Shown here: one piece after another, positions 2,541 to 20,854 of the stretch
Numbering within the stretch: the stretch's first letter is position 1
Layout: every line of letters begins with the position of its first letter
Source: an uncultured Actinomycetota bacterium
GTDB taxonomy: Bacteria > Actinomycetota > Actinomycetes > Propionibacteriales > Nocardioidaceae
Direction: 5' to 3'
Assembly: GCA_963781335.1 (NCBI GenBank)
Contig: CAWAFS010000031.1
Location: 54,059-118,058 of the forward strand
Length of the DNA stretch: 64,000 nt
The notes under the pieces: generated by a model
What the model was told of the DNA's origin: nothing
What the model saw: the letters and a program-made list of their open reading frames with translations, nothing else
The model's database searches: none
Position numbers and translations under genes: made by a program

Positions 2541-5033
2541 ATGAGCGAGCAGGACCAGAGCGAGACCGTGGGCTACGACGTGCACGCCACCGAGGCCAAG
2601 TGGCTGCCGGTGTGGGATGAGCTCGACCCGTTCCGAGCCGACGACGACAGCCCGCGCGAGAAGCGCTACGCGCTGACGATGTTTCCCTACCCGAGCGGTG
2701 ACCTGCACATGGGTCACGCCGAGGTGACCGCGCTCCACGACGTGATCGCGCGCTACTGGTGGCAGCGCGGCTTCGAGGTGCTCAACCCGATCGGGTGGGA
2801 CTCCTTCGGCCTGCCGGCGGAGAACGCAGCGATCCAGCGCAACGAGCACCCGGCGACCTACACCTACGCCAACATCGAGACCCAGGCCGCGTCCTTCCGC
2901 AAGTACGGCATCAGCTTCGACTGGTCGCGTCGGCTGCACACCTCCGACCCGGAGTACTACCGCTGGACGCAGTGGCTGTTCCTGAAGCTGCGGGAGCGGG
3001 GCCTGGCCTACCGCAAGTCCAGCCCGGTGAACTGGTGTCCCAACGACCAGACGGTGCTGGCCAACGAGCAGGTCGTCGACGGTTTCTGCGAGCGATGCGG
3101 GGCCGAGGTGACCAAGCGCGAGCTGACGCAGTGGTACTTCAAGGTGACCGACTACGCCCAGCGGCTGCTCGACGACATGGACGACCTGAACTGGCCCGAG
3201 CGGGTGCTGACGCTGCAGCGCAACTGGATCGGTCGCTCGGAGGGTGCCCACGTCGACTTCGAGGTCACCACCGAAGGCACGGACCAGACCCGGACGATCA
3301 GTGTCTACACCACCCGCCCGGACACGCTGTTCGGCGCGACGTTCATGGTGGTGGCCGCCGACGCGAAGCTGGCCGAGGAGATCGTCTCCTCCGAGCAGCG
3401 GTCGGCCTACGACGACTACCTGAACCAGACCCGGATGGCCTCCGACATCGACCGGCTGACGACCGACCGCCCCAAGACCGGGGTGTTCCTCGGCGCGTGG
3501 GCGGTCAACCCCGTGAACGGGCAGAAGGTGCCGGTGTGGGCGGCGGACTACGTGCTGGCCGACTACGGCACCGGCGCGATCATGGCCGTCCCCGGGCAGG
3601 ACCAGCGCGACTGGGACTTCGCGGAGAAGTTCGAACTCCCGATCGTCCGCACCGTGCAACCGTCCGAGGCCTTCGAGGCCGGCGGCGGCAAGGCGTTCAC
3701 CGGCAACGGCCCGGCCATCAACTCCGCGAACGACACCGTCTCCCTCGACGGCCTGGACATCGACGACGCCAAGCAGACGATCATCGGCTACCTCGAGGAG
3801 CAGGGGAGCGGTCGCGGCGCGGTGAACTACCGGCTGCGTGACTGGCTGCTGTCCCGCCAGCGCTTCTGGGGCTGCCCCATCCCGATAGTGCACTGTCCGG
3901 AGTGCGGCGAGGTGGACGTGCCGGAGGACGAACTGCCGGTCGTACTGCCAGAGCTCAGGGGTGCCGACCTCAAACCGAAGGGTGTCTCACCCCTGGCAGC
4001 GGCCGAGGACTGGGTGAACGTGGACTGCCCGAGGTGTGGCGGACCCGCCAAGCGCGACTCCGACACGATGGACACCTTCGTGGACTCGTCGTGGTACTAC
4101 CTGCGCTACTGCTCACCCCACGACGACACCCAGGCGTTCGACCCCGACAAGGTGAACCTGTGGATGCCGGCCGAGCAGTACGTCGGTGGCGTCGAGCACG
4201 CGGTCCTGCACCTGCTCTACAGCCGGTTCTTCACCAAGGCACTGCACGACATGGGGCTGATCGACTTCGAGGAGCCCTTCTCGGCGCTGTTGAACCAGGG
4301 CGTCGTGATCAACCAGGGCAAGAAGATGAGCAAGTCGCTGGGCAACGGCGTCGACCTCGGTCAGCAGCTCGCGGAGTACGGCGTGGACGCGGTGCGGCTG
4401 ACCCTGGTGTTCGCCGGACCTCCCGAGGACAACATTGACTGGGCCGACATGTCACCCGCCGGCTCGCTGCGATTCCTGCAGCGTGCCTGGCGCCTCTCCG
4501 GCGACGTCACCTCGGCGCCGGGCACCTCGCCGGTCGACGGCGATGTCGCGCTGCGCAGGGTGACCCATCGGACGCTGCGCGAGACCGAGACGCTGCTCGA
4601 CTCGCACCGGTTCAACGTGATGGTCGCCCGGATGATGGAGCTCGTGAACGCCACCCGCAAGGCGATCGACTCAGGGCCAGGTCCCCAGGATCCGGCGGTG
4701 CGGGAGGCGACCGAGGCGGTGGCGATCCTGCTCTCGCTCGTCGCGCCGTACACCGCCGAGGAGATGTGGTTCCGGCTGGGTCACGAGCCCACCGTGGCCC
4801 GGGCGGGCTGGCCCGTGGTCGACGAAGCCCTGCTGGTCGAGGACTCCGTCACCGCGGTCGTGCAGGTGCAGGGGAAGCTTCGGGCCAGGCTGGAGGTCTC
4901 GCCCGACATCAGCGACGCCGACCTCGAGGCGGCGGCCCTGGCCGACGAGTCGGTGCAGCGTGCCCTGGAGGGCCAGCAGGTGCGCAAGGTGATCGTGCGG
5001 GCACCCAAGCTGGTCAACGTCGTCGTCGGCTGA
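2541..5033 (+). CDS. leuS: leucine--tRNA ligase
   Basis: Class I signatures HMGH (GDLHMGH) and KMSKS, CP1 editing region, about 830 aa. ATG at 2541 preferred over the TTG at 2532 used by the track. Confidence 0.97.
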
Positions 5034-5064
5034 TGAGTCGACTTCCCGGGATGCGGAGAATTCA

Positions 5065-5084
5065 TGCCGCGTTCCGCTCGGTCG
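5065..5084 (+). repeat. 20-bp direct repeat TGCCGCGTTCCGCTCGGTCG, left copy
   Basis: Identical 20-mer at 7839..7858. Sits about 30 nt after the leuS stop. Confidence 0.9.
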
Positions 5085-5104
5085 ATGTGCGGACGCGCCC
5101 CGAC

Positions 5105-5494
5105 CTACTCGGTTTCCTGCACGACGCCGGCCGCTACTTGCGCGGCAAGTCGATCCACCCTGACTCGGGCCTCGTCGGCGCCCACTACTTCTTCTTCGAC
5201 GAGAAGCGTCTCGCCGTCCTCGTCGCAACGCCAGACCTCGAGGTACCAGATCGGAGGACCAGAGTGCCGCCGTTCCCCGCGCTCATAGCCCTTCCTGAGT
5301 AAGCGGTTGGCACGCCAGAGCATGAGCCTGGCCAGCCGCCCATCGCCAGCATCAGGCCTGAGCATCGGCCAGTCTGGGGGACCTGGCACCTCTGCGCTGA
5401 TCTGGTTGACCCGTCCGGCAGGGTCGGTTGCCCATCGCACGATCTGCACGTCGTTGGTGAGGTCCTCGCCCTCCGGGAGATCGTCGATATCCAC
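5105..5494 (-). CDS. hypothetical protein (islet)
   Basis: 129-aa ORF. GC3 clearly lower than in core genes. No family recognised. Confidence 0.5.
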   Translation of the reverse strand: MDIDDLPEGEDLTNDVQIVRWATDPAGRVNQISAEVPGPPDWPMLRPDAGDGRLARLMLWRANRLLRKGYERGERRHSGPPIWYLEVWRCDEDGETLLVEEEVVGADEARVRVDRLAAQVAAGVVQETE

Positions 5495-5590
5495 GCAGTC
5501 GATGATGCAGTACCGAAGTTGCTCTTGGTCAGTAAAGCCCGAAGTCCAACGTCCGCTTCTGCCGCCGATCCGCGCTTCCAGTGGGTTTGT

Positions 5591-5938
5591 TCAGTCCGCT
5601 ATCGGCATCGACAGCAGGATCAGGAACAGGCCGCACCAGATCCCGGTCACGAGCCCAAGGGCCGCAACAACCCCCGCCGTTCCGTCCAGCGGGCCGTCCT
5701 CCGGTGCGGGACGCTGCCTAATGGACACAAATCCCAGAGCGCTCAACGCTACAAACGCGAAGGGCGCCACGAAGGTCGCCAAGAAGTCAGCAGCCTCACC
5801 GAGACTGGACCGTATCGGTCCGGCAAGGACGAAGTGGGACCAGAAGGCGAGCAGCAGCACGGCTTGCAAGCAGGTCACAAGAACAACGGCGCGCGCGGGC
5901 CAACCCGAGATAGTCCTCTTGCCGCTCGCTATCGACAC
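5591..5938 (-). CDS. hypothetical membrane protein (islet)
   Basis: 115 aa with three hydrophobic helices (VVLVTCLQAVLLLAFW, FVAPFAFVALSALGFV, AALGLVTGIWCGLFLILL). Confidence 0.5.
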   Translation of the reverse strand: MSIASGKRTISGWPARAVVLVTCLQAVLLLAFWSHFVLAGPIRSSLGEAADFLATFVAPFAFVALSALGFVSIRQRPAPEDGPLDGTAGVVAALGLVTGIWCGLFLILLSMPIAD

Positions 5939-6053
5939 TCTCGAACGATCCCACAGGACTGCGGTGGTCGCTGGCCTATTCGGGCTCGCTGGTGAGCCTC
6001 TTCACCACCCTTTCCCTAACGCACTGACATGCCGCATAGTGCGCGCCTGCGGG

Positions 6054-6371
6054 TCATTCGAGAAGGGGTAGCTCGAGGTCATAGGCCAAGACCACGGCGC
6101 GCCCCAGTTGGGCCTCTTGTTCGGCGCTGAGGTATCCGACGGTGCGACCGAGCTGGTTCACCGGGACGGTGATGACGTTGTCGAGGGCGACCACGCAGTC
6201 GTGATCCAGCCCGTTGCCGGGTCCGACCAGGACCTCGCTGGACAAGCCCTTGATGGTGGTGGTGATGGGAGCGACCGTCACCTTCGTCATCGCAGCCCGC
6301 GCCGCCTCACGGGTCAAGATCAATGCCGGCCGGGTCTCGTCGAGACGCACCACGCAGATCTCGCGCACCAA
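6054..6371 (-). CDS. mazF: type II toxin, MazF/PemK-family endoribonuclease
   Basis: VREICVVRLDETRPALILT...APITTTIKGLSSEV is the typical MazF/PemK layout. TTG (6371) or GTG (6368) start immediately after the antitoxin stop. Confidence 0.8.
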   Translation of the reverse strand: MVREICVVRLDETRPALILTREAARAAMTKVTVAPITTTIKGLSSEVLVGPGNGLDHDCVVALDNVITVPVNQLGRTVGYLSAEQEAQLGRAVVLAYDLELPLLE

Positions 6372-6605
6372 TCAGTCCTCGACCTCGAGGTGGGTGCTGC
6401 TCCAATTCACCAGATCGTCCAGGTCGTCGGCGGGGCCGTGCTCACGCAGGACTTGGGCGTCTTGCTCGGCGGCCTGTCGACGCATTTCCCGCTCCACCGC
6501 GGCCGCGACGAGCGCAGCCCGGCTGGGGGCCAGGCCGGTGGCCACGGTGCGGTCCAGGAAGGCCACCATCTCGTCGGGGAGGCGAACGGCGATCTGAGTG
6601 CTCAT
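6372..6605 (-). CDS. type II antitoxin (ribbon-helix-helix, MazE-like)
   Basis: MSTQIAVRLPDEMVAFLDRTV is an RHH N-terminus, with an acidic C-terminus. Abuts mazF. Start taken at ATG 6605; alternatives are 6614 and 6629. Confidence 0.75.
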   Translation of the reverse strand: MSTQIAVRLPDEMVAFLDRTVATGLAPSRAALVAAAVEREMRRQAAEQDAQVLREHGPADDLDDLVNWSSTHLEVED

Positions 6606-6625
6606 GGGACCCATTGTTACCCGAC

Positions 6626-6644
6626 GCATCCCACTTTGGGATGC
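6626..6644. promoter_or_regulatory. palindrome GCATCCCA-ctt-TGGGATGC upstream of the mazEF operon (candidate operator)
   Basis: Perfect 8-bp arms about 20 nt upstream of the antitoxin start. Confidence 0.4.
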
Positions 6645-6980
6645 GCACTCGCATGCCGCTGATGGTGCCCGGAACTGCCGAGATCCGGTAGACGCTCAGC
6701 GGGGCTATGCACGTGATCTTTCGGACATACCGTGGCCTGTCGTCGACCACGACGCCCGAAGGACGATCAGTTCGAGGTCGCACGCGCGGTGTCCCCGCGC
6801 GCGCGGAACCCTCGCGGCCCGACCTGATCGTCCTTGTGGCGCCGCCCGGCGTCCGCAGCGGCCTTGGAAGGAGGCAGTTCGGGGAAGTGACCCGTCGCTC
6901 AGGCGGGAACAGGCATATGGCTGCCGCGAACTGCCTCCCTCTGATGCGCGGAGCCACGAGAACGGTCGATCGCACGCTTC

Positions 6981-7000
6981 TGCCGCTGTCGGTGCGTAGC
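6981..7000 (+). repeat. 20-bp direct repeat TGCCGCTGTCGGTGCGTAGC, left copy
   Basis: Identical 20-mer at 7550..7569. The pair brackets only the GNAT gene. Confidence 0.9.
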
Positions 7001-7067
7001 TTGCCGATGAGCGGTCGTCGTGGGTGAGCCATTTCAAGACGCTGATGGCCATGGCAAGGTCGTTCGA

Positions 7068-7543
7068 ATGGACGTAGCGATCCGGCCAGTCGAGGCAACC
7101 GACCACGAGGACGTGATGCGCTTGGCACCGCGACTGCTCGTCGGGGTGGACCCTTCCAGGCCGACCGATCTGGTACGCACGGCCATCCAGGACTGGGTGG
7201 ATGAGTCAGTGAAGTCCGCGGGCAGCGACGGCCAGGCCGGATGGGTCGCCGACACGACGGCTCCGTCATCGGGTTCGTCTCTGTGTCAGCAGAGGATCAC
7301 TGGTGCGGAGTGACGGATGCCTGGGTCGGGGAGATGATGGTGGAGGAGCGGTTCGAGAGGAAGGGCGTCGCCCGGTCGCTGATCGGTAAGGCCGAGGAGT
7401 GGGCAGCTCAACGGGGTCTCCGACACATTCGTCTGACGACAGGGGCCGCCAACCACGGAGCACGAGCCTTCTACGAGCGGCTCGGCTACAGACTGAACGA
7501 GGTCACCCTGACAAAGGAACTCCTCACCCAGCCGAGCGCCTGA
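7068..7543 (+). pseudogene. GNAT family N-acetyltransferase, frameshifted
   Basis: N-terminal half in the frame of ORF 7020..7313 (MDVAIRPVEATDHEDV...GQAGWVA). C-terminal half with acetyl-CoA motif (ERFERKGVARSLIGKAEEWAAQRG...FYERLGY) in ORF 7241..7543. Frames join near 7250-7260 if one base is restored. Confidence 0.8.
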
Positions 7544-7549
7544 CGCTCA

Positions 7550-7569
7550 TGCCGCTGTCGGTGCGTAGC
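7550..7569 (+). repeat. 20-bp direct repeat TGCCGCTGTCGGTGCGTAGC, right copy
   Basis: Identical to 6981..7000. Starts 7 nt after the GNAT stop. Confidence 0.9.
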
Positions 7570-7643
7570 GTCCGTCCGCAGATCGCGCGCGGTCCTGCCG
7601 CGAAGAGCGTCGGAGGCGGCGCTCTGGATGTAGCGTCGCAAGC

Positions 7644-7814
7644 ATGACCGCTGGCTCCCTCTTCAATGGCTTTGCGTTGCTCCTCGTCCTACTGATCATC
7701 GCTGGAGTGGCCGGCGGCATTGGATCAGTCGAGTTGCTCATCTGGCTCGCGCTCGTCACAGCCTGGATCGCGTGGTGGATGGTGAGTCGACGCAGGAGCG
7801 ACCCTGCCCCCTGA
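7644..7814 (+). CDS. small membrane protein, 56 aa (below the ORF-track cutoff)
   Basis: Own translation: MTAGSLFNGFALLLVLLIIAGVAGGIGSVELLIWLALVTAWIAWWMVSRRRSDPAP. Two hydrophobic helices plus a basic tail. Confidence 0.35.
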   Translation: MTAGSLFNGFALLLVLLIIAGVAGGIGSVELLIWLALVTAWIAWWMVSRRRSDPAP

Positions 7815-7838
7815 CACGGGCTGGCGAACGTCCGCAAC

Positions 7839-7858
7839 TGCCGCGTTCCGCTCGGTCG
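7839..7858 (+). repeat. 20-bp direct repeat TGCCGCGTTCCGCTCGGTCG, right copy
   Basis: Identical to 5065..5084. Followed directly by TGCCGAGATC, which also occurs at 6676. Confidence 0.9.
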
Positions 7859-7882
7859 TGCCGAGATCAGTGCAGGGGTCTA

Positions 7883-8478
7883 TTACTTCGGGGGTGTTTC
7901 GAGGGCCTGCCTGACGAGGGCGTCGACCATCCATTGTTGGAGGGCGCTGACTTCTGCGGGGGCGAGGCCAGCGACGTCGCTCAGCCAGACGCGGGTCTCG
8001 ATGCCACATGCGGCGCGGAATGCCAGCGCAAGCCGGCGGACGCCCTCTTCGCCGATCGACTCGGCCATTGGCTCGAGCGCCTCGATGAACCACGGAATGG
8101 CGCGGCCCTGGCGGAGCGGCAGCTCGTGCGGCACTTCTCCCAGCGAGAGGCGCAGCATCGCACGTTGCTGCGGCTCATTCTCCTGCACGCGGCTGATGAC
8201 GAACCCGGCAACGGCGGCCACGCGTTCGTCCACGGCTTCCGGCGGCGGGTCGGGAAGGGCGGACGCGGCTCCTGTCTCCGGGTATGCCGCGGCGAGAAGT
8301 CGGCCTGTGAGGTGAAGTAGCGGTAGGCGGTGGGGCGAGAGATCCCGGCAGCCTCCGCGACCTGCTCGACACGGGGGGTGTCGCCCGCGGTGATCAGCTC
8401 GCGCGCCGCAGCGATCAGTTGGTCGCGGGTGCGTTGCTTCTGCCGCGTGCGACCCGACTCGATGTAGTCCGTTGACAT
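7883..8478 (-). pseudogene. TetR/AcrR family transcriptional regulator, frameshifted
   Basis: HTH half (RDQLIAAARELI...VEQVAEAAGISRPTAYRYFTSQ) in ORF 7981..8478. Ligand-domain half (LLAAAYPETG...WMVDALVRQALETPPK) in ORF 7883..8488. Frames join near 8300. Confidence 0.8.
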
Positions 8479-8531
8479 GGTCGTTCATGATATGCCATTC
8501 TCATTACAAGACTCAAGTCTCATGAATGACC
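8479..8531. promoter_or_regulatory. divergent TetR/cupin promoter region with 12-bp inverted repeat (candidate TetR operator)
   Basis: GGTCGTTCATGA (8479..8490) and TCATGAATGACC (8520..8531) match at 11 of 12 positions as an inverted repeat. AT-rich spacer. Confidence 0.45.
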
Positions 8532-8541
8532 GGAGTGTCAG

Positions 8542-9012
8542 ATGACTGAAAGGACGATGCTCGCGCCGGTGATCCGACGAGCAGGCGAGGGCGAGAAGCG
8601 ATGGTTCTTCGGCGGTGGCGTTTTCACCTGGAAGCTCAGCAGTGCTAACGAGGACATCGGCCTGTGGGAGGTCGACATGGTCGAGGGCAAGTGGACCCCG
8701 ATCCACACCCACCCGGTCTCGGAGTCCATGTGGGTGCTCGAGGGGCAAATCCAGTACCGCGTCAACGACGATGAACACGAACTCGGTGCCGGCGACTTCG
8801 TCATGGTGCCCGCAGGCGTACCCCACGCCTTCATCGTCAAGAGTTCCACGGCCAAGGTGCTCGGCATCCAGCCAACATGCGAGTTCGAACCCTTCTACCT
8901 CGGCGCCAGCGAGCCGTTCGAAGGGTCGGCCTGCATCGTCGACTTCGCCAGGATCGCGCAGAGCGCTCAAGAGAACGGCGGCATCGAGATCGTCGGACCC
9001 CCACCCTTCTAG
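8542..9012 (+). CDS. cupin domain protein
   Basis: Cupin motifs PIHTHPVSESMWVLEG and GDFVMVPAGVPHAF. Divergent from the TetR gene. Confidence 0.8.
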   Translation: MTERTMLAPVIRRAGEGEKRWFFGGGVFTWKLSSANEDIGLWEVDMVEGKWTPIHTHPVSESMWVLEGQIQYRVNDDEHELGAGDFVMVPAGVPHAFIVKSSTAKVLGIQPTCEFEPFYLGASEPFEGSACIVDFARIAQSAQENGGIEIVGPPPF

Positions 9013-9171
9013 AGGAGGGCGCACTCACCTGCCGCGTTGGGGACGGCTAAGCTCGCCGGGATCTGCCGCGGCCCACGCGCTCCAAGCAGGCATCGTCGTA
9101 CAACCTTCGACGCCATGACGAGCATTTTCGATGGCTACGTTGCCAGCGGTCGCTGATGGGACACTGCGCAG

Positions 9172-9804
9172 GTGCACCGAATGTCTCGCTCACATGCGCT
9201 CACCACCGTCGCATTCGGTACGCCGGCACTTGCCCTGGCCGTGGCCGGGTTGTTCCACCCGCACCGCCTCGGTTACGACTCGGCGCAGCGCTGGTTCCTT
9301 CTGCACATCGCCGGCCTGGTCGCCTTTCCTCTCGCCGGGGTGGCGCTGACCGCACTCATGGGCCGCCGGCGGGACGTCCTCGCGTGGGCGGCGCGGGTCG
9401 CGGCCTACCTCTATGCGACGTTCTACACCGCGCTGGACGTGGTCAGCGGGATCGCGGCGGGATACCTCACCCGCGAGCTCGGACCGGGCACACCTAGGCC
9501 CGACGAGGTCCGCCTGCTGTTCCGAATCGGCACCCCGCTCGGTGAGATCGGCTCGTGGGCGCTCCTTGTCTGCTGCGCACTCATCGCGGCCGACCAGTTG
9601 CATCGCCACGGGCTGGCCGCCCTTCCCGGGCTGCTGCTCGTGCCGGGTGCCTGGCTGGTGCACGTCGATCACATCTTCGCGCCCACGGGTGCAGCCGGCA
9701 TGGCCCTGATCGGCTTCGCAACGGCCTGGCTGGCTGCGCTCGCGACCAAGCCACCAGCGCGCCTGTCGCCGGACGAGACCACGTGGTCGGGAATCGCGTC
9801 ATAG
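9172..9804 (+). CDS. hypothetical integral membrane protein
   Basis: 210 aa with about six hydrophobic segments. GTG 9172 or ATG 9181 start. Confidence 0.55.
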   Translation: MHRMSRSHALTTVAFGTPALALAVAGLFHPHRLGYDSAQRWFLLHIAGLVAFPLAGVALTALMGRRRDVLAWAARVAAYLYATFYTALDVVSGIAAGYLTRELGPGTPRPDEVRLLFRIGTPLGEIGSWALLVCCALIAADQLHRHGLAALPGLLLVPGAWLVHVDHIFAPTGAAGMALIGFATAWLAALATKPPARLSPDETTWSGIAS

Positions 9805-9840
9805 CAGGGAAGTCGCGAGGCAGGGAAGTCGCGAGGCAGG
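9804..9840. repeat. 16-bp tandem duplication GCAGGGAAGTCGCGAG x2 plus a partial third unit
   Basis: Read directly. Begins at the last base of the stop codon of the 9172..9804 ORF. Confidence 0.85.
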
Positions 9841-9982
9841 CAAGCCTGCACGAACGGGTGACAGGTTGGGTCACGCAGCCTGAGTGGCTGTCCTCGCCGG
9901 TGCCGTGACAGCCCGCGAGTTCCTCCTCACCCACGTGGATCCTGAACTTCCCGAACACCTGCCATCGTGCAGCAAGGGGACG

Positions 9983-11290
9983 TTAGGCGGCGTCGTCGAG
10001 CAGTCGTCTGATCCGTTGCTCGATGCTCATGACGGGTGGGTCGCCAGGCTGTGGGGGAGGGCTGGATCGGTAGCGATGTCCCGTGGGCGTGGTGATCTCG
10101 ACGCGATGTCGGTCGGAGGTGACGAGGTCGGTGCGCCAGCCTGGGGTCTCCTTGATGTAGTTGCAGGATTCGCAGAGGCCCTGGCCGTTCGCGGCGGTCG
10201 TTGGTCCACCGTCGCTGGCTCGGCGGATGTGGTCGACGTGGGCGATGGGGGCGTCGCACCAAGGGGTGCGGCAGGTCTGGTCGCGGAGCACGAGCAGTCG
10301 GCGGAGCGTGCCGCGGAAGGTGCGGCGCTGGCTGTCCATTGCGACGAGCTCGCCAGTGGTGGGGGCGGTGAAGAGCCGGTGGATCCAGGCCCGGTCGGCG
10401 TCGCGGACGATCCGGCGGGCCAGGAACCCCGGGATGGTGCCGTAGCCCGAGACGTAGGCAGGTTCGTGGTCGCCACGGAGCAGCGTGCGCTCGTTCATCA
10501 CGAGCTGGACCTCGACGCCACCGACGGCGGACTGCTGCCCAGTGAGGCGGGTGTAGAAGCTGTCGGCCATGATCTGGCTGAGGGTGCGCGTGTCGCCCTC
10601 CGCGCGCAGAGTCTTGGCGTGCCGGCGCAAGGCGGCGTAGACGGCGACTCCTTGCGCGACTGGCAACAGGCCGGTGACGTTGGTCATCGTGTCGGGTGCA
10701 GGTCGGATGGTGACGCGTCGGTCGGTCTCGGCCTTCTGGTTGCGGCGCAGCGCTGCCCCGGGGTCGAGGCGGTAGGCGATCGTGCGTGCGAGGTCAGCGA
10801 CCCGTCGGTCTCCGGCGCCGACGAGCTGGGGCGCGAGCTCGGCGTCGACCTGCCTCCGGTCCTCGCGGGTCAGGGTCGCGGTCTCGCGAACGATCAGGGT
10901 CGCGCGCCACTCGGAGATCTTGCCGTGCGTCAGTCCCTCGAGGGTGTGCGGCAGGTCGCGGACCAGGCCGAGCGCGAGACCGAGGTGCTGCTGGCCTCGG
11001 GCCGGTGACTCGCGTCGAGCAAGTGCGACCTGGGCGGCGATGCCGCGCGAGACCTCACTTGTCGACTTCAAGGAGGGTGCTGCGTCGCGCTGGGAGCGGT
11101 CGAAGGCCTCGGTGATCCTGGCCTGCGCAGCGGCGGCAGCGGCCTTGAGCGACTCCAGCTCCCCGATCCGGTCGATGCGCTCGCGGTCGCTCAGATCATG
11201 CCCGTCGTGCCGCGCCAGCGACTCGATCCAGGCAGCCGGGTCCACCGGCAAGACGCCGGGGGAGTGGGGTTGCCGCAATGAATCGAACAT
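9983..11290 (-). CDS. DUF222 / HNH endonuclease (13E12-repeat-family-like protein)
   Basis: MFDSLRQ...IGELESLKAAAAAAQARITEAF is a DUF222-type N-terminus. C-terminal HNH region is RDQTCRTPWCDAPIAHVDHIRRASDGGPTTAANGQGLCESCNY. Start set at ATG 11290, because the track ORF extends upstream into ycaQ. Confidence 0.85.
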   Translation of the reverse strand: MFDSLRQPHSPGVLPVDPAAWIESLARHDGHDLSDRERIDRIGELESLKAAAAAAQARITEAFDRSQRDAAPSLKSTSEVSRGIAAQVALARRESPARGQQHLGLALGLVRDLPHTLEGLTHGKISEWRATLIVRETATLTREDRRQVDAELAPQLVGAGDRRVADLARTIAYRLDPGAALRRNQKAETDRRVTIRPAPDTMTNVTGLLPVAQGVAVYAALRRHAKTLRAEGDTRTLSQIMADSFYTRLTGQQSAVGGVEVQLVMNERTLLRGDHEPAYVSGYGTIPGFLARRIVRDADRAWIHRLFTAPTTGELVAMDSQRRTFRGTLRRLLVLRDQTCRTPWCDAPIAHVDHIRRASDGGPTTAANGQGLCESCNYIKETPGWRTDLVTSDRHRVEITTPTGHRYRSSPPPQPGDPPVMSIEQRIRRLLDDAA

Positions 11291-11401
11291 ACGTTCGAGT
11301 CTACCAAACCGGGAGAACACGTCAAGGGGAGGCGGGCAAATCTGTGGATCAATCCGACGAGCGACCTGCCGAGCGCATCGAGGGCCGTCTAACCTGCGTG
11401 G

Positions 11402-12445
11402 GTGCTCACCCTGCGCGACCGGAACCGCACGCTGCTGCGACGGCAACACCTGCTGGAGCGCACCACGATGTCGGCGCTGAGGATGGTCGAGCACCTCGTC
11501 GGCCTGCAGGCGCAGGAGAACCTGCCGCCCTACCTCTCGCTCGCGGCCCGGATCCAGGACTTCGACCCGCTCGAGCTGTCCGGGGCTCTCGAGAGCAAGG
11601 ACGCGGTTCGGTTCCTGACGATGCGAGGCACCATCCACGTGCTCGTACCTGACGATGCGTTGTCGTTGCGACCCTGGGTGCAGCACGCGCTCGACCAGCA
11701 GAGTGCCTCCAACCAGATGAGCCGCCCGGCGAAGTCCGTGCCGGTCGAAGACCTGGTCGCCGCGACCCGACGACTCCTCGAACCGGGTCCGCTGCCCGTC
11801 AAGGCGCTGGGTCAGCTGCTCGGGAAGGACTTCCCCGGCGTACCCGCCGGTGCGCTCGCGCACACGGCGCGTGAGCGGGTGCCGATGGTCCAGGTCCCGC
11901 CTCGAGGGCTGTGGAAGCGGTCTGGCGGCGTCGTCTACCAGACGGTCGAGAACTACCTCGGCCAGTCACAGAGCGAGGTCGACCTGCCCGAGCTCGTGCG
12001 CCGCTACCTGCGGGCGTTCGGACCTGGCACCGCTGCGGACATGACCGCGTGGTCTCGGGTGACCAGGCTCGGCCCGGTCTTCGAGTCGATGAGGGACGAG
12101 CTCGTGGTGGTGGAGTGCGAGGACGGCAGGCGGAGGTACGACGTGCCGGGTGCGCCGTACGCCGAGGGGGACACGCCCGCACCGGTCCGCCTGCTCGGCG
12201 CCTACGACAACGTGTGGCTCTCGCACTCAAGTCGTGAGCACATCGTCCCGCCCGACGTGGGCCCGCGGTGGATGGGCGCGAACGGTGGCGTCGGCAGCAC
12301 GATCTTCGTCGACGGCTTCATGGCCGGCCTGTGGTGGGTCCGCGACGGCCGCATCGTGACCGACGTCTTCAGAAGCCTGTCGACACGCGAGCAGGGCGAG
12401 CTGGACGCCGAGGTTGCCCGCGTCGACGCGCTGCTGTCCGGGTGA
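11402..12445 (+). CDS. winged-helix DNA-binding protein, YcaQ/DUF1006 family (DNA glycosylase-like)
   Basis: LRDRNRTLLRRQHLLERT...VEHLVGLQAQ...MRGTIHVL is the characteristic N-terminal pattern of this family. GTG start. Confidence 0.7.
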   Translation: MLTLRDRNRTLLRRQHLLERTTMSALRMVEHLVGLQAQENLPPYLSLAARIQDFDPLELSGALESKDAVRFLTMRGTIHVLVPDDALSLRPWVQHALDQQSASNQMSRPAKSVPVEDLVAATRRLLEPGPLPVKALGQLLGKDFPGVPAGALAHTARERVPMVQVPPRGLWKRSGGVVYQTVENYLGQSQSEVDLPELVRRYLRAFGPGTAADMTAWSRVTRLGPVFESMRDELVVVECEDGRRRYDVPGAPYAEGDTPAPVRLLGAYDNVWLSHSSREHIVPPDVGPRWMGANGGVGSTIFVDGFMAGLWWVRDGRIVTDVFRSLSTREQGELDAEVARVDALLSG

Positions 12446-12599: not shown

Positions 12600-14774
12600 G
12601 TGAGTGGAAACAACGTTCGCCTGCAGGCGATCAAAGATGTCGAGGCCTATGTTCCGCCCGCTGTGAGCTTCGCGCTCACCGAGACGCCCGGCGAGATCTT
12701 CGGTGAGAACGTGTTCAGCAAGACCGTGATGCAGAAGCGGCTCCCGAAGTCGGTCTACAAGTCGGTGCTTGCGACCATCGAGCACGCAGCACCGCTCGAC
12801 CCGGCCATGGCCGATGCGGTCGCCTCGGCGATGAAGGACTGGGCGATGGAGAAGGGCGCCACCCACTACGCCCACGTCTTCTACCCGCTCACCGGCCTGA
12901 CCGCGGAGAAGCACGACAGCTTCCTGGAGCCCGCCGGTGACGGCTCCGCCCTCGCGGAGTTCTCCGGCAAGACCCTGGTCCAGGGTGAGCCCGACGCGTC
13001 CAGCTTCCCGAACGGTGGCCTGCGCAACACCTTCGAGGCCCGCGGCTACACCGGCTGGGACGCGACCAGCCCGGCGTACGTGCTGGAGAACCCGAACGGC
13101 AACACGCTGTGCATCCCCACGGTGTTCGTGTCGATGACCGGCGAGGCGCTGGACCACAAGACGCCGCTTCTGCGGGCCCAGCAGGCGATGGCCGACCACG
13201 CCGAGCGGATCCTGCGGCTGTTCGGGCACGAGCCCGAACGAGTCGTGTCCTACTGCGGTGCGGAGCAGGAGTACTTCCTGATCGACCGCCACTTCTTCCT
13301 CGCCCGGCCTGACCTGCTGAACTCCGGCCGCACGCTCTTCGGGACCAAGCCGCCCAAGGGGCAGGAGTTCGACGACCACTACTTCGGCGCCATTCCCGAG
13401 CGGGTCCTCGGCTTCATGATGGACACTGAGCGAGAGTTGTTCAAGCTGGGGATCCCGGCCAAGACGCGGCACAACGAGGTCGCTCCCGGCCAGTTCGAGA
13501 TCGCGCCGATGTTCGAGCGCGGCAACGTCGCGGCAGATCACCAGCAGCTGCTGATGACGACCTTCAAGACGGTCGCGAAGAAGCACGGCATGGAATGCCT
13601 GTTCCACGAGAAGCCGTTCGAGGGTGTCAACGGCTCGGGCAAGCACGTGAACTTCTCGCTGGGCAACGCCACGGAGGGCAACCTGCTGCTGCCGGGGGAC
13701 AACCCCCACGACAATGCGCAGTTCCTGGTGTTCTGCGCGGCCGTCATCCGAGCCGTGCACAAGTTCGGTGGCCTGCTGCGCGCCTCGGTCGCGTCTGCCT
13801 CCAACGACCACCGTCTCGGCGCCAACGAGGCTCCGCCGGCGATCATCTCGATCTTCCTCGGAGACCAGCTGACCGACGTCTTCGACCAGATCGCGAAGGG
13901 CGGTGCGACGTCCTCGAAGGACAACGGCACCCTGAAGGTCGGCGTGGACACCATTCCGGTCCTGCCGACCGACCCCGGCGACCGCAACCGCACCAGCCCG
14001 TTCGCGTTCACGGGGAACCGGTTCGAGTTCCGTGCGCCGGGCTCGATGCAGACGGTGGCCGGCCCGATGGTCATCCTGAACGCGATCATGGCGGAGGCGC
14101 TCGACCACATCGCCACCAGCCTGGAGACCGCCCGGGCCGACGGGGTCGAGTTCAACACCTCCGTGCAGAACGTCCTGGCGGAGATCATCGACAACCACGG
14201 TGCAGTCGTCTTCAACGGGGACGGGTACTCCGAGGAGTGGCAGCAGCAGGCCGCCTCACGTGGGCTGCCGAACCTCCGCACCACGCTGGACGCGCTGCCG
14301 GAGCTCGTCTCCGAGGAGTCCATGGAGCTGTTCGCGCGCTACCAGATCTTCAACCACCGCGAGATGCACAGCCGCTACGAGATCGGCCTGGAGCACTACA
14401 CCCTGAGCATCGGCGTCGAGGCGCGATCCACGCTCGAGATCGGCACGACCGCCGTGCTGCCGGCCGCGATGCGCTACCAGACCGAGGTAGCGCTCAACCT
14501 GGGTGCTCTCAAGGCCGCCGGGGTCGAGACCGACACGACGTCCCTCGAAGCAGTGTCGGCTCCGCTGGCCGATCTCCGGAGCGCGCTCACGACCCTGGGC
14601 CAGGCTCTGCAGGCCGATGTGGGGTCGACCCCGCTGGCGGAGGCCGAGCACGCGCGCGACGTGCTCCTTCCCGCGATGACCGAAGTGCGTTCCGCCGCTG
14701 ACCTGATCGAGGGAGTTGTGGCCGACGACCTGTGGCCGCTCCCGACCTACCAGGAGATGCTCTACATCCTGTGA
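12600..14774 (+). CDS. glnN: glutamine synthetase, type III
   Basis: About 724 aa from GTG 12600 ([11 protein letters not shown]...). The [24 protein letters not shown]-terminal domain and length fit GS-III. The ATG at 12507 used by the track abuts the putative operator and is less likely. Confidence 0.88.
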
Positions 14775-19912: not shown

Positions 19913-20854
19913 ATGCACAGGCAGGCACAGCAGGAGGTCGCGGCCGCGGCCCGGCGTCGACTCGAGCTGTTGGGCCGCGAGCTCGACCAGGCAGGGCTGA
20001 GACGGGTCGACGAGCTCGACCATGAGCCGAGCCACCGACCCGACCCGGACGGTCCGGACACGCGCCTGCCGGACCCTGCCACCGTCGCTCCGGTCGGCCG
20101 GCACCTGCGCGAGGCACGACCTGGACCTGCGCGCCGTCTGGGTGGCCGTCTGGGTGGCTGGCTGGGTGATCGGGTGCCGGAGACCTTGCGGGGCCGCGCC
20201 GGGCTCGACCCCGGACCGGTGCTGCTGGTCGTGGCGCTGGTGGCGTTGGCTGTGACCGCGACCGCATTCGTGGTGCTGCGGATGGGGGGTGACGCCGAGA
20301 CTGTTCCCCGGAGCCCCGCGCTGCAGACCCGCTCCGGCTCCCCGTCCCCGCTGGTCCCGTCCCCGCTGGTCCCGTCGGCAGCGACAACGGCTGCCTCGGC
20401 AGCCGTCCCGGGGAGCGCTCAGGGGAGCGTCACCGTCGACGTCGCGGGGAAGGTACGCCGGCCCGGTGTTGCCACCCTGCCGGCCGGGTCCCGGGTCGTC
20501 GACGCCCTGAAGCGGGCCGGTGGTGCTCGAGGGCGAGTGGACCTCAGCACGCTGAACCTGGCACGCGTCCTGGTCGACGGTGAACAGATCCTGGTCGGCC
20601 GACCAGCCGCACCAGGCGGCCTGGCCGCCAGCGCGAGCACCGCCGCTCCCGACGCGACAGGAGCCTTGGTCAACCTCAACACCGCCACGTCCGACCAGCT
20701 CGACACCCTGCCGGGGGTGGGGCCGGTCACTGCCCAGAAGATCCTCGACTGGCGCACCGCCAACGGCGCCTTCTCCTCGGTCGACGAGCTGCTGGAGGTC
20801 GACGGCATCGGGGAGAAGACGCTTGCGGAGCTGGCGCCGCACGTCACGCTGTGA
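19913..20854 (+). CDS. comEA: ComEA family DNA-binding protein
   Basis: SLBB-like region (VTVDVAGKVRRPGVATLPAGSRVVDAL) and helix-hairpin-helix (LNTATSDQLDTLPGVGPVTAQKILDWR). Start at ATG 19913. Confidence 0.88.
   Translation: MHRQAQQEVAAAARRRLELLGRELDQAGLRRVDELDHEPSHRPDPDGPDTRLPDPATVAPVGRHLREARPGPARRLGGRLGGWLGDRVPETLRGRAGLDPGPVLLVVALVALAVTATAFVVLRMGGDAETVPRSPALQTRSGSPSPLVPSPLVPSAATTAASAAVPGSAQGSVTVDVAGKVRRPGVATLPAGSRVVDALKRAGGARGRVDLSTLNLARVLVDGEQILVGRPAAPGGLAASASTAAPDATGALVNLNTATSDQLDTLPGVGPVTAQKILDWRTANGAFSSVDELLEVDGIGEKTLAELAPHVTL

What the first reader, a model, noticed from the sequence alone, without database searches (positions are those of the whole stretch)
6981..7569. Second perfect 20-bp direct repeat pair, nested inside the first, brackets exactly one gene (GNAT)
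TGCCGCTGTCGGTGCGTAGC occurs at 6981..7000 and 7550..7569. The 569-bp unit between repeat starts contains only the (frameshifted) GNAT acetyltransferase plus its about 65-bp leader. The right copy starts 7 nt after the stop codon.

This pair shares the TGCCGC core with the outer pair, so the structure is cassette-within-cassette. A single promoterless-sized gene delimited by its own repeat is the defining geometry of a mobile gene cassette.
Basis: seen in the sequence. Interest (0 to 1): 0.65.

Follow-up and report, generated by a model that had tools for sequence, protein, structure and literature searches.

The report
Actinobacterial gene-cassette recombination sites flanking GNAT
The 20-base repeat on each side of the broken acetyltransferase gene is two copies of a short recombination-type site that separates small accessory genes in many actinobacterial genomes, always near one Xer-like recombinase, so it looks like an integron-like gene-cassette system in a phylum thought to lack one.

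Summary
TGCCGCTGTCGGTGCGTAGC occurs exactly twice (6981, 7550), far beyond chance, and brackets only a GNAT pseudogene plus a conserved 66-nt leader.

The 20-mer is not the gene's own repeat. It is the 6-bp centre (TGCCGC) plus right arm of a 28-bp site with dif-like layout: 11-bp imperfect inverted arms around TGCCG(C/A).

At least 11 such sites, all on the + strand, lie between gene modules across window 5.0-9.1 kb. This region lies within a 6.4-kb stretch between leuS and alkZ, which are adjacent in relatives.

The same site family flanks a roughly 300-aa Xer-like tyrosine recombinase in 80 loci from many actinobacterial genera. There it forms co-oriented arrays spaced 0.3-2 kb, mostly one gene per interval.

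An arm-only weight matrix trained on those foreign sites ranks nine island sites as the top nine of 369 TGCCG cores in the window (P about 9e-11).

GNAT and mazEF modules recur elsewhere in unrelated contexts, and their homology ends at these sites. No recombinase lies in the window.

Best reading: an integrase-less cassette array of an undescribed integron-like or dif-module-like system. Recombination itself is inferred, not shown.

The parts
5054..5081 (+). First site of the array (centre TGCCGC 5065-5070), 31 nt after the leuS stop. Left copy of the 'outer' 20-nt repeat. The left arm is non-consensus chromosomal flank; the right arm GTTCCGCTCGG is identical to that of site 7839.
   Evidence: D12; arm score -3.0
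5105..5494 (-). ORF of 129 aa with no Pfam match and GC3 0.74. Forms a two-gene module with the 115-aa ORF.
5549..5576 (+). Weak site (centre 5560) between the 129-aa and 115-aa ORFs. Left arm ACGTCCGCTTC fits the consensus.
   Evidence: D2; score 2.8
5591..5938 (-). ORF of 115 aa, hydrophobic, no Pfam match.
6019..6046 (+). Site (centre 6030), the best-scoring in the window. It bounds the mazEF module on the left.
   Evidence: score 15.4
6054..6629 (-). mazF/pemK toxin (6054-6371) and an 85-aa upstream ORF taken as its antitoxin from position alone, no Pfam match (6372-6629). A portable module that sits next to the Xer-like recombinase in other genomes.
6643..6692 (+). Site doublet: centre TGCCGC at 6654 and centre TGCCGA at 6676. 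It bounds mazEF on the right.
   Evidence: scores 5.9, 7.1
6970..6997 (+). Site L (centre 6981-6986). The left copy of the reported 20-mer equals centre + right arm TGTCGGTGCGT + AGC.
   Evidence: score 12.8
7002..7018 (+). Half-site TGCCGA-TGAGCGGTCGT. Homology with GNAT loci of other genomes starts exactly here.
7002..7067 (+). 66-nt GNAT leader, conserved in L090, L092 and L094. No consensus promoter and no Rfam match.
7068..7543 (+). GNAT N-acetyltransferase pseudogene with a 1-nt deletion after 7252.
7539..7566 (+). Site R (centre 7550-7555), holding the right copy of the 20-mer. Positions 7548-7576 match the 29-nt tandem unit of other genomes at 28/29.
   Evidence: score 7.6
7585..7612 (+). 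Site (centre 7596) upstream of the 56-aa ORF.
   Evidence: score 5.4
7644..7814 (+). ORF of 56 aa, hydrophobic.
7828..7875 (+). Site doublet: centre TGCCGC at 7839 (right copy of the 'outer' repeat) and centre TGCCGA at 7859. The stretch CCGCTCGGTCG-TGCCGA matches the sequence found just after recombinase stop codons elsewhere (L144, L131).
   Evidence: scores 14.0, 5.0
7883..8478 (-). TetR-family regulator, frameshifted.
8542..9012 (+). Cupin_2 protein.
9019..9080 (+). Site doublet (centres 9030 and 9064, 28-nt spacer). 84-90% identical to doublets next to recombinases in L175, L156, L152 and L105. Last recognisable site of the array.
   Evidence: scores 12.7, 3.0

Best explanation
The two 20-mers are the centre-plus-right-arm halves of two nearly identical 28-bp recombination sites. 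Each site has 11-bp imperfect inverted arms around the asymmetric centre TGCCG(C/A). They belong to a site family used by a Xer-like tyrosine recombinase that is widespread in Actinomycetes. In the window they are two members of an array of at least 11 co-oriented sites (5065-9064). The array lies within the 6.4-kb variable stretch between leuS and alkZ and now lacks its recombinase.

Inferred mechanism: recombinase dimers bind the arms of two sites, exchange strands across the shared centre, and so excise the DNA between two direct sites as a circle carrying one site, or insert such a circle at any other site. For GNAT this would give a 569-bp circle. Its reconstructed junction, CTGACGCTCA-TGCCGA-TGAGCGGTCGT, is a good palindrome.

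The 20-nt identity exists because both flanking sites carry the same common right arm, the 'U' type also found in tandem arrays elsewhere.

Shown: site family membership, array structure, physical link to the recombinase, portability of the GNAT and mazEF modules, and one cassette presence/absence difference exactly at a site.

Inferred: catalysis by that recombinase, the crossover position, and any current activity in this genome.
For: (1) The 20-mer recurs in 7 other genome assemblies. In one MAG it is the core of a 29-bp tandem unit, which equals one 28-bp site plus 1 nt.

(2) A frameshifted Xer-like recombinase in L088 is flanked by these sites, and the same gene lies at the edges of L086 and L081.

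(3) In 80 loci holding relatives of that recombinase (72-86% aa identity, many genera), the most enriched 7-mers in its flanks are TGCCGA[AT] and ATGAGCG downstream (10-13x) and CATGCCG, TCTGCCG, TGCCGCG and CGCTCAT upstream (5-8x).

(4) An arm-only PWM from those foreign sites ranks island sites as the top 9 of 369 TGCCG cores in the window, all on the + strand; hypergeometric P = 9e-11.

(5) Site density is 472 per 1.26 Mb in recombinase loci against 9 per 1.56 Mb in leuS control loci, some from the same MAGs.

(6) Recombinase loci carry arrays, for example 20 sites in L104. 92% of adjacent pairs are co-oriented. Median spacing is 913 bp, with a second mode at 20-34 bp. 126 of 240 intervals hold a single ORF.

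(7) The consensus of 99 TGCCGA sites is ACGCCCGGTCA-TGCCGA-TGAGCGGGCGT, an 11-6-11 palindrome.

(8) GNAT homology with L090 spans 7002-7561. mazEF homology spans 6048-6661 (L081) and 6020-6645 (L148), and that module sits directly beside the recombinase in L148 and L175.

(9) L152 and L156 differ by a 665-bp segment exactly at a duplicated site.

(10) Relatives have leuS directly followed by alkZ.

(11) Cassette cargo is diverse: 95 Pfam families in 141 ORFs, including GNATs, RHH and HicB antitoxins, and immunity proteins.

(12) Read from the L104 sequence, the recombinase shows the stretches LGLRIFE, HMLRHT and TTMRYD. I take these to hold the catalytic Arg, the His-x-x-Arg motif and the Tyr of tyrosine recombinases; this is my reading by eye, not a motif alignment.
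Against: - No recombinase of this family lies in the 64-kb window (tblastn), and I could not examine the rest of the genome.
- No circular or empty-site form of the GNAT unit was found in the collections searched.
- Homology boundaries of the mazEF module fall several nt outside the centre rather than exactly in it. The crossover point is therefore unresolved, and arms may be exchanged as part of the sites.
- The left junction of GNAT carries an extra 21 nt (a mini-unit between TGCCGC and TGCCGA) that a single simple integration does not predict.
- Sites 5065, 5560 and 9064 score weakly.
- GNAT loci in L090, L092 and L094 have no site scoring 5 or more.
- The PWM-based array statistics partly reuse the training sites: about 66 of the 472.
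Confidence: 0.72

Rival explanations
1. The sites are REP-like intergenic palindromes with a structural, termination or regulatory role. They are merely favoured insertion targets for the recombinase-bearing element and for IS110-family elements. GNAT is an ordinary gene lying between two such palindromes and is not itself mobilised by them.
For: Intact palindromes of the CGCTCATGCCGATGAGCG type exist (L083, L088). The recombinase gene looks like an insertion into such a palindrome, with conserved arms on its outer sides. IS110-family transposases sit at sites. Perfect tandem arrays look like minisatellites.
Against: Sites are about 65-fold concentrated near recombinase genes and nearly absent from 1.56 Mb of leuS neighbourhoods, including those of MAGs that have arrays. 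In the window they occur only in the inserted island. The genes between them are accessory, lower in GC3 and recur in different contexts. Single-strand folding of most sites is no better than shuffles, and no terminator-like T tracts were found.
Confidence: 0.15
2. An IS110-family (bridge-RNA-guided) recombinase, rather than the Xer-like enzyme, recognises these sequences and created the repeats.
For: In L086 an IS110-family transposase follows a 13-unit array and is flanked by 13-bp direct repeats TGCCGCTGTCCGG. Further copies occur in L160 and L101.
Against: Only 3 of about 90 site-rich loci have such a gene, whereas the Xer-like gene was itself the query that retrieved those 80 loci, so its presence there is by construction; what tells against IS110 is how rare it is, together with the enriched site k-mers in the Xer-like gene's flanks and its appearance at 3 of the 9 loci found by the 20-mer alone. 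The 11-6-11 palindromic layout is typical of tyrosine-recombinase sites. IS that target recombination sites are a known side phenomenon: ISAjo2-type IS at pdif sites (PMC10132070), and IS1111 elements at attC sites (from my own knowledge).
Confidence: 0.05
3. The 20-mers are a target-site duplication or a local duplication made when GNAT was inserted by a transposase or by illegitimate recombination.
For: The repeats are perfect, directly flank a single gene, and share no further flank similarity.
Against: The same 20-mer, and the longer 28-29-nt unit, occurs in other genomes without GNAT. GNAT in L090 and L094 is flanked by related but different sites. No transposase is present. 20 bp is outside usual duplication sizes (my own knowledge).
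Confidence: 0.03
4. A genuine integron cassette array (attC sites with IntI) or a cluster of attC sites lacking an integrase.
For: Co-oriented sites, mostly single-gene units, and cargo typical of chromosomal integrons such as GNATs and toxin-antitoxins.
Against: The recombinase scores 50.7 bits against the integron-integrase model, whose cutoff is 265, and it is closest to XerD and XerC. The sites are 28 bp with a TGCCGM centre, not 57-141-bp bulged hairpins with RYYYAAC/GTTRRRY. ORF orientation is mixed, 166 same against 118 opposite. The recombinase sits inside the array and is co-oriented with it.
Confidence: 0.01

Closest known systems
Integrons (IntI, attC cassette arrays, and integrase-less attC clusters called CALINs)
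   Same: Arrays of co-oriented short recombination sites separate mostly single, small, functionally diverse accessory genes, including GNATs and toxin-antitoxin modules. A dedicated tyrosine recombinase is associated with them. Integrase-less arrays exist, as in this window. IS that target the sites also occur.
   Different: The recombinase is Xer-like and fails the IntI models. Sites are 28-bp double-strand-type 11-6-11 palindromes with centre TGCCG(C/A), not folded attC hairpins. There is no attI/Pc platform: the recombinase gene is itself bounded by sites inside the array. ORFs lie in both orientations and appear to keep their own leaders.
Acinetobacter dif modules (pdif sites, XerC/XerD)
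   Same: 28-bp sites with two 11-bp arms and a 6-bp centre bound discrete modules of one to a few genes. Those modules, often toxin-antitoxin or resistance genes, recur in different contexts (PMC6449649, PMC13141974). IS target the sites (PMC10132070).
   Different: pdif sites alternate in orientation, resemble the chromosomal dif, rely on the host XerC/XerD and sit on Rep_3 plasmids. Here 92% of neighbouring sites are co-oriented, the sequence is GC-rich and unlike the dif consensus as I recall it, a dedicated multi-copy Xer-like gene is linked to the sites, and the arrays are chromosomal.
rAID-1 and polyimmunity loci with an adjacent XerD-like recombinase (Bacteroidales; also noted for Actinobacteria)
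   Same: A XerD-family recombinase lies next to arrays of small acquired genes, with repetitive intergenic sequences 'reminiscent of integrons' and skewed GC content (bioRxiv 10.1101/471110). Zhang et al. 2012 (PMC3482391) noted XerC/D genes beside polyimmunity loci, including in actinobacteria. The L104 array contains Imm26 and CdiI_2 immunity genes.
   Different: rAID-1 genes are co-directional downstream of the recombinase and are mostly immunity genes. Here the cargo is broad (95 Pfam families in 141 ORFs), orientation is mixed, and arrays extend on both sides of the recombinase. Sequence relatedness of the recombinases and sites was not tested.
REP/BIME elements and MIRU-type minisatellites
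   Same: Short imperfect palindromes lie in intergenic DNA, sometimes in tandem arrays of variable copy number, and act as targets for IS.
   Different: The sites here are not dispersed genome-wide. They cluster with one recombinase family and with accessory genes. No RAYT-type transposase was seen.

Membership tests
Integron | IntI-type integrase (tyrosine recombinase with the integron-specific insertion) | tested here: not met
   For the L104 recombinase, TIGR02249 integron integrase scores 50.7 bits against a cutoff of 265, and NF011946 scores 34.5 against 435. The best NCBIfam hits are generic Xer, XerD and XerC. The best PDB match is XerD 1a0p. No such gene lies in the window.
Integron | attC sites: 57-141 bp, R''/L''-L'/R' boxes (RYYYAAC...GTTRRRY), recombined as folded single strands | tested here: not met
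   The sites are 28 bp with centre TGCCG(C/A). Single-strand folding z-scores run from +1.3 to -1.6 for the genomic sites. No Rfam hit was found. The IntegronFinder attC model was not available.
Integron | Array of co-oriented sites separating mostly single-ORF cassettes | tested here: met
   92% of adjacent pairs are co-oriented, 126 of 240 intervals hold one ORF, and median spacing is 913 bp. In the window all 9 sites scoring 5 or more are on the + strand; the two weaker recognisable sites (9064, 5560) are too.
Integron | attI plus Pc platform next to a divergently oriented intI; promoterless, co-oriented ORFs | tested here: not met
   The recombinase lies inside arrays, co-oriented with the sites and bounded by sites on both sides. 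ORF orientation is 166 same against 118 opposite. GNAT keeps a conserved 66-nt leader.
dif modules (pdif) | 28-bp site: two 11-bp arms around a 6-bp centre | tested here: met
   Consensus ACGCCCGGTCA-TGCCGA-TGAGCGGGCGT (n=99) and aaCGtCCGcatc-TGCCGC-g..g.G.GCG (n=354).
dif modules (pdif) | Modules flanked by inversely oriented sites (alternating C/D and D/C) | tested here: not met
   319 ++ and 40 -- pairs against 32 mixed pairs.
dif modules (pdif) | Sites resemble the host dif and are acted on by housekeeping XerC/XerD | not testable with these tools
   The host dif was not identified here. The linked recombinase is multi-copy and falls below the XerC/XerD cutoffs.
rAID-1 / polyimmunity locus | XerD-like recombinase followed by co-directional orphan immunity genes with repetitive intergenic sequence | tested here: inconclusive
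   A XerD-like enzyme and repeats are present. Immunity genes are present in L104 but are a minority of the cargo. Orientation is mixed. Homology to the Bacteroides recombinase was not tested.
REP/BIME | Hundreds of copies dispersed in intergenic regions genome-wide; RAYT transposase | tested here: not met
   9 sites in 1.56 Mb of leuS neighbourhoods against 472 in 1.26 Mb around recombinases. In the window there are none outside the island among the top 9 hits. Whole genomes were not scanned.
Transposon target-site duplication | The repeat is a duplicated piece of the local target and is unique to the insertion | tested here: not met
   The same 20-mer occurs in 9 genome stretches and 17 metagenome contigs, including tandem arrays.

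The most novel reading that the evidence does not exclude
Actinomycetes possess a previously unrecognised, phylum-wide gene-cassette platform. It consists of a dedicated Xer-like tyrosine recombinase and 28-bp TGCCG(C/A)-centred sites that capture, stockpile and shuffle single-gene modules in chromosomal arrays. It would be functionally equivalent to integrons but independently evolved, and would use double-strand dif-type sites. The GNAT unit in this window would be one such cassette in an orphan array.
Probability: 0.55. Interest if true: 0.9.

Novelty: new variant of a known kind. Interest (0 to 1): 0.8.

Why it matters

A recombinase-plus-site system that builds cassette arrays in Nocardioides, Terrabacter, Intrasporangium, Micromonospora, Amycolatopsis and relatives would do three things:
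- It would give a mechanism for hypervariable islands carrying toxin-antitoxins, acetyltransferases, immunity genes and an aminoglycoside nucleotidyltransferase-like gene.
- It would provide a computable signature, the 28-bp site model, for finding mobile cassettes in soil metagenomes.
- It would offer a simple, arm-less recombinase with a short defined site for genome engineering in high-GC bacteria.

It would also link integrons, dif modules and rAID loci as convergent solutions to the same problem.

Tried and rejected
- **Palindromicity scoring.** Scoring every TGCCG(A/C) core in the window for palindromic arms did not separate island sites from background. This is presumably because junction sites are hybrids of arms from different modules. 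I replaced it with the PWM.
- **Single-strand folding.** Folding of the sites was not better than shuffles, except for the reconstructed GNAT circle junction (z = -3.1). An attC-like folded substrate is therefore not supported.
- **Known RNAs and signals.** The Rfam scan of 4900-9300 gave nothing. The promoter and terminator consensus scan of 6600-7700 gave nothing.
- **Exact-protein look-ups.** mazF is not on record. The 129-aa ORF returned only near-identical short contigs of the same arrangement.
- **Plasmids.** A plasmid search for the recombinase gave one distant hit at 41% identity.
- **Literature.** Searches for the site sequences and for actinobacterial integron-like systems found no description.
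- **Empty GNAT site.** I looked for one in genome and metagenome hits of the 20-mer and found none.
- **A primary attachment site.** A TGCCGC in the leuS-alkZ spacer of L006, L007 and L009 looked like a primary attachment site, but its arms score -13. I treat it as only a weak hint.
- **Site 6922.** The TGCCGC at 6922 is not a site (score -11).
- **Other indels.** The 286-bp and 206-bp indels among metagenome contigs L179-L193 are not bounded by sites.
Full report
**1. The observation**

TGCCGCTGTCGGTGCGTAGC is present exactly twice in the window, at 6981-7000 and 7550-7569. Both copies are on the + strand, and no further copy exists at up to 3 mismatches. None of 100 dinucleotide-preserving shuffles gave two matches.

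The identity extends to 27 nt with two mismatches (6974-7000 against 7543-7569) and then stops. The pair is therefore not the edge of a larger duplication.

Only five exact direct repeats of 20 nt or more exist in the 64-kb window. Two of them are this pair and the 'outer' pair TGCCGCGTTCCGCTCGGTCG at 5065 and 7839.

Between the inner copies lies only a GNAT acetyltransferase split over two frames.
- By homology with intact 158-aa relatives, the gene starts at 7068 and stops at 7543.
- It carries a 1-nt deletion after 7252.
- The same deletion is in an independently assembled metagenome contig (L194), which argues against an error confined to this assembly.

**2. Genomic setting**

The window is a chromosome piece of a Marmoricola/Nocardioidaceae bacterium. 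Its leuS is up to 91% identical to soil MAGs.

In relatives L006, L007, L013 and L072, leuS is followed directly by the alkZ-like gene that sits at 11402 in the window. Other relatives carry different short inserts there.

Window 5034-11401 is therefore a 6.4-kb variable insertion. It holds these genes, with lower GC3 than the flanking core genes:
- a 129-aa and a 115-aa ORF
- mazEF
- the GNAT pseudogene
- a 56-aa ORF
- a frameshifted TetR
- a cupin
- a membrane protein
- a DUF222/HNH gene

**3. The 20-mer is a generic element, not the gene's own repeat**

An exact search of species-representative genomes found the 20-mer in 9 stretches from 7 other genome assemblies (three named Nocardioidaceae in their records or sharing a MAG with a leuS locus, the rest labelled only uncultured Actinomycetota).

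In one MAG it is the core of a perfect 29-bp tandem unit, CATGCCGCTGTCGGTGCGTAGCGTCCGAC. That unit is repeated 12-15 times at three loci.

Elsewhere it occurs once, always followed by GTCCGACCATGCCGC, which is the start of a further unit. Soil metagenomes hold more examples.

The right copy in the window (7548-7576) matches the 29-nt unit at 28 of 29 positions.

**4. A linked recombinase**

Next to a unit in L088 lies a frameshifted gene for a tyrosine recombinase of about 290 aa. It is bounded by TGCCGC cores on both sides. The same gene lies at the edges of L086 and L081.

An intact relative (L104, 306 aa) has these properties:
- It has a Phage_integrase catalytic domain (Pfam PF00589).
- It is closest to XerD and XerC but far below their cutoffs.
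- It is far below the integron-integrase models.
- Read by eye from the sequence, it shows LGLRIFE, HMLRHT and TTMRYD, which I take to hold the catalytic Arg, His-x-x-Arg and Tyr; no motif alignment was run.

A search with the L088 recombinase sequence matched more than 494 places. The best 80 come from many genera: Nocardioides, Terrabacter, Intrasporangium, Ornithinimicrobium, Micropruina, Kribbella, Micromonospora, Amycolatopsis, Kutzneria and Lentzea. Identity is 72-86% aa, and there are often several copies per genome.

The window itself has no copy.

**5. The sites**

Unbiased 7-mer enrichment in the recombinase flanks, measured against the rest of the loci, puts TGCCG-centred words on top:
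- Downstream of the stop codon: TGCCGAA, TGCCGAT and ATGAGCG, at 10-13x.
- Upstream of the start: ATCTGCC, CATGCCG, TGCCGCG, AACGCAC and CGCTCAT, at 5-8x.

I collected 453 distinct sites. Their consensus is:
- aaCGtCCGcatc-TGCCGC-g..g.G.GCG (n=354)
- ACGCCCGGTCA-TGCCGA-TGAGCGGGCGT (n=99)

This is an asymmetric 6-bp centre between 11-bp imperfect inverted arms, 28 bp in all. That is the layout of Xer/dif-type sites.

The reported 20-mer is centre + right arm (TGTCGGTGCGT) + 3 nt. The 29-bp tandem unit is one whole site plus 1 nt.

**6. Independent test on the window**

I built a weight matrix from arm positions only; the centre was not scored. It was trained on 66 TGCCGC sites upstream of recombinase genes in other genomes. 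I then applied it to all 369 TGCCG cores on both strands of the window.

The nine best hits are 6030, 7839, 6981, 9030, 7550, 6676, 6654, 7596 and 7859. All lie in 5034-9170, all are on the + strand, and all fall between gene modules. With 32 of the 369 cores in that interval, the probability is 9e-11.

Weaker members are 9064 and 5560. Site 5065 has a chromosomal, non-consensus left arm but the same right arm as 7839, which is what makes the 'outer' repeat.

The island is thus a linear array of at least 11 co-oriented sites, including three TGCCGC/TGCCGA doublets. It is not a nest of cassettes.

**7. Arrays elsewhere**

| Measure | Result |
|---|---|
| Sites scoring 5 or more, recombinase loci | 472 in 1.26 Mb |
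| Sites scoring 5 or more, leuS control loci (some from the same MAGs) | 9 in 1.56 Mb |
| Adjacent site pairs that are co-oriented | 92% |
| Spacing between sites | bimodal: 20-34 bp doublets, and 0.3-2 kb with median 913 bp |
| Intervals of 150-2500 bp holding one ORF / two ORFs | 126 / 47 of 240 |
| Median ORF length | 165 aa |
| ORF orientation relative to the site | 166 same, 118 opposite |
| Mean GC3, cassette ORFs against other genes | 0.79 against 0.83 |
| Pfam families among 141 cassette ORFs | 95 |

Individual loci show the arrays directly. In the isolate genome of Intrasporangium zincisolvens (L104), 14 co-oriented sites precede the recombinase and 6 follow it, with ORFs of 86-170 aa in most intervals (a few are larger, up to about 420 aa). 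Terrabacter LjRoot27 (L112) has a 15-copy array with a 34-bp period plus 11 spaced sites.

The cargo includes alpha/beta hydrolases, methyltransferases, ECF sigma factors, GNATs, RHH and HicB antitoxins, glyoxalases, an ANT(2'')-like protein and the immunity proteins Imm26 and CdiI_2.

**8. Portability of the modules**

GNAT homologues of 86%, 83% and 73% aa identity lie in three unrelated chromosomal contexts.

Nucleotide homology with L090 (88%) runs from 7002, the half-site TGCCGA-TGAGCGG, to 7561, just inside site R. In L090 and L094 the gene is again bracketed by related sites or palindromes.

The two ends of the GNAT unit are inverted complements (TGAGCGG... and ...CGCTCA). A circle would therefore rebuild the palindrome CGCTCA-TGCCGA-TGAGCG. 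That palindrome occurs intact in L083 and L088, and as a single strand it folds better than shuffles (z = -3.1).

The mazEF module (6048-6661 against L081, 6020-6645 against L148) is 84-89% identical to copies in L081 and L148, and 66-77% identical to copies in L133, L170 and L175. In L148 and L175 it sits directly after the recombinase.

The doublet at 9019-9080 is 84-90% identical to doublets in four recombinase loci.

Two Nocardioides species with 95-98% identical flanks differ by a 665-bp segment whose ends coincide with a duplicated site (L152 against L156).

**9. Mechanism proposed**

This section is inference. Recombinase dimers bind the arms of two sites and exchange strands across the shared centre. 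Direct sites give excision of a circle carrying one site. A circle can then insert at any site.

For GNAT the circle would be 569 bp. The 20-nt identity reflects that both flanking sites carry the common 'U' right arm.

Several points remain unresolved:
- The exact cleavage positions.
- The role of the C or A at centre position 6.
- The origin of the 20-34-bp doublets, including the extra 21 nt at the left GNAT junction.
- The origin of the perfect tandem arrays.
- Whether the system is still active in this genome, which has pseudogenised GNAT and TetR and no recombinase within 64 kb.

**10. Rivals**

- **REP-like palindrome that is only a target.** This fits the intact palindromes and the IS110-family insertions. 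It does not fit the 65-fold clustering with one recombinase, the restriction to the inserted island, or the portability of the intervening genes.
- **IS110-family agency.** This is unlikely because such genes are rare at these loci.
- **Target-site duplication.** This is excluded by the recurrence of the same sequence elsewhere.
- **A true integron.** This is excluded by the recombinase family and the site structure.

**11. Comparison with known systems**

The system works like an integron in having co-oriented sites, single-gene cassettes, diverse cargo and orphan arrays. Its site layout matches Acinetobacter dif modules (28 bp, 11-6-11; PMC6449649, PMC13141974).

It fails the defining features of both. 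There is no IntI, attC or attI/Pc. Site orientation does not alternate, and the arrays are chromosomal, not on Acinetobacter plasmids; whether the housekeeping XerC/XerD act on the sites could not be tested here.

The nearest described relatives in spirit are the Bacteroidales rAID-1 clusters, which combine a XerD-like recombinase, orphan immunity genes and integron-like intergenic repeats (bioRxiv 10.1101/471110). A related remark is that polyimmunity loci, including actinobacterial ones, often adjoin XerC/D genes (PMC3482391).

I found no paper that defines these actinobacterial sites or arrays. The literature available to me is incomplete, so 'undescribed' is provisional.

**12. Verdict**

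The finding opens onto what appears to be a new variant of the cassette-platform kind in Actinomycetes. All evidence is comparative and computational; recombination has not been shown.

Noticed in passing
L083 6432-6866; L086 5036-5420; L088 1874-2200; L187; L112 92-568: Perfect tandem arrays of whole 28-bp sites with nothing between them. The period is 29 bp with 12-15 copies in one MAG and in a soil contig, and 34 bp with 15 copies in Terrabacter LjRoot27. Their origin (slippage, or repeated recombination) and any function are unknown.
   Followed up: partly
L086 5940-7289 (direct repeats at 5415 and 7304); L160 4385-5677; L101 160-1450 and 3562-4866: IS110-family (DEDD_Tnp_IS110) transposase genes sit at or next to sites. 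In L086 the element is flanked by 13-bp direct repeats TGCCGCTGTCCGG. This parallels IS that target attC or pdif sites.
   Followed up: partly
window 6979-8221 vs L194: An independent metagenome contig differs from the window by 1 SNP over 6979-7951 (GNAT and the 56-aa ORF) but by about 35 SNPs over 7952-8221 (TetR). This sharp mosaic boundary lies about 100 nt beyond the 7839/7859 sites. It could be recombination between strains or a chimeric assembly.
   Followed up: no
window 7002-7067: The 66-nt GNAT leader (GGTGAGCCATTTCAAGA...ATGGCAAGGTCGTTCG) is conserved in four genomes. It has no Rfam match and no sigma-70 consensus promoter. It may be a regulatory element.
   Followed up: partly
window 7883-8488: The TetR-family gene is also split over two frames (7981-8478 and 7883-8488), so two neighbouring accessory genes are pseudogenes.
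   Followed up: no
window 9804-9835: A perfect 16-bp tandem duplication, GCAGGGAAGTCGCGAG x2, starts at the last base of the stop codon of ORF 9172-9804.
   Followed up: no
window 9983-11863; L014 16023-17363; L012 about 12700-13300: A DUF222/HNH-type ORF lies next to alkZ. It is also present in L014, and what reads by eye as a fragment of one lies in L012. It is a second kind of recurrent insert in the leuS-alkZ spacer.
   Followed up: no
L009 12475-13160; L006/L007 about 12500: The leuS-alkZ spacer of relatives contains a TGCCGC just before the alkZ start. L009 carries what reads by eye from the DNA as an isochorismatase-like gene (no protein search was run), inserted just upstream of it with a short repeat of AGGCTG.C.G. 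The arms score poorly, so this is only a hint of a pseudo-attachment site.
   Followed up: partly
L152 7545-8210 vs L156 8202-8232: Two Nocardioides species differ by a 665-bp segment plus a 34-nt unit, exactly at a duplicated site. This is a natural cassette presence/absence difference.
   Followed up: yes
L148 2535-4102; L175 10001-11427; L081 3-1367: A mazEF module homologous to window 6048-6661 lies directly downstream of the Xer-like recombinase gene in several genomes. It may act as an addiction module for the recombinase unit or the array.
   Followed up: partly
window 36524-37651: Exact repeats of 19 and 21 nt share the same 924-nt offset (36524/37448 and 36707/37631), which indicates a duplicated segment or tandem paralogues.
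   Followed up: no
window 20341-20376: A 21-nt exact repeat at a 15-nt offset (CCCGTCCCCGCTGGTCCCGTC), a short tandem repeat; whether it lies inside a gene was not checked.
   Followed up: no
L179 5437-5643 vs L192: A 206-bp insertion polymorphism among near-identical soil contigs carries a perfect consensus site (ACGTCCGGATC-TGCCGA-TGAGCGAGC) inside it, but it is not bounded by sites. It may be a miniature element.
   Followed up: no
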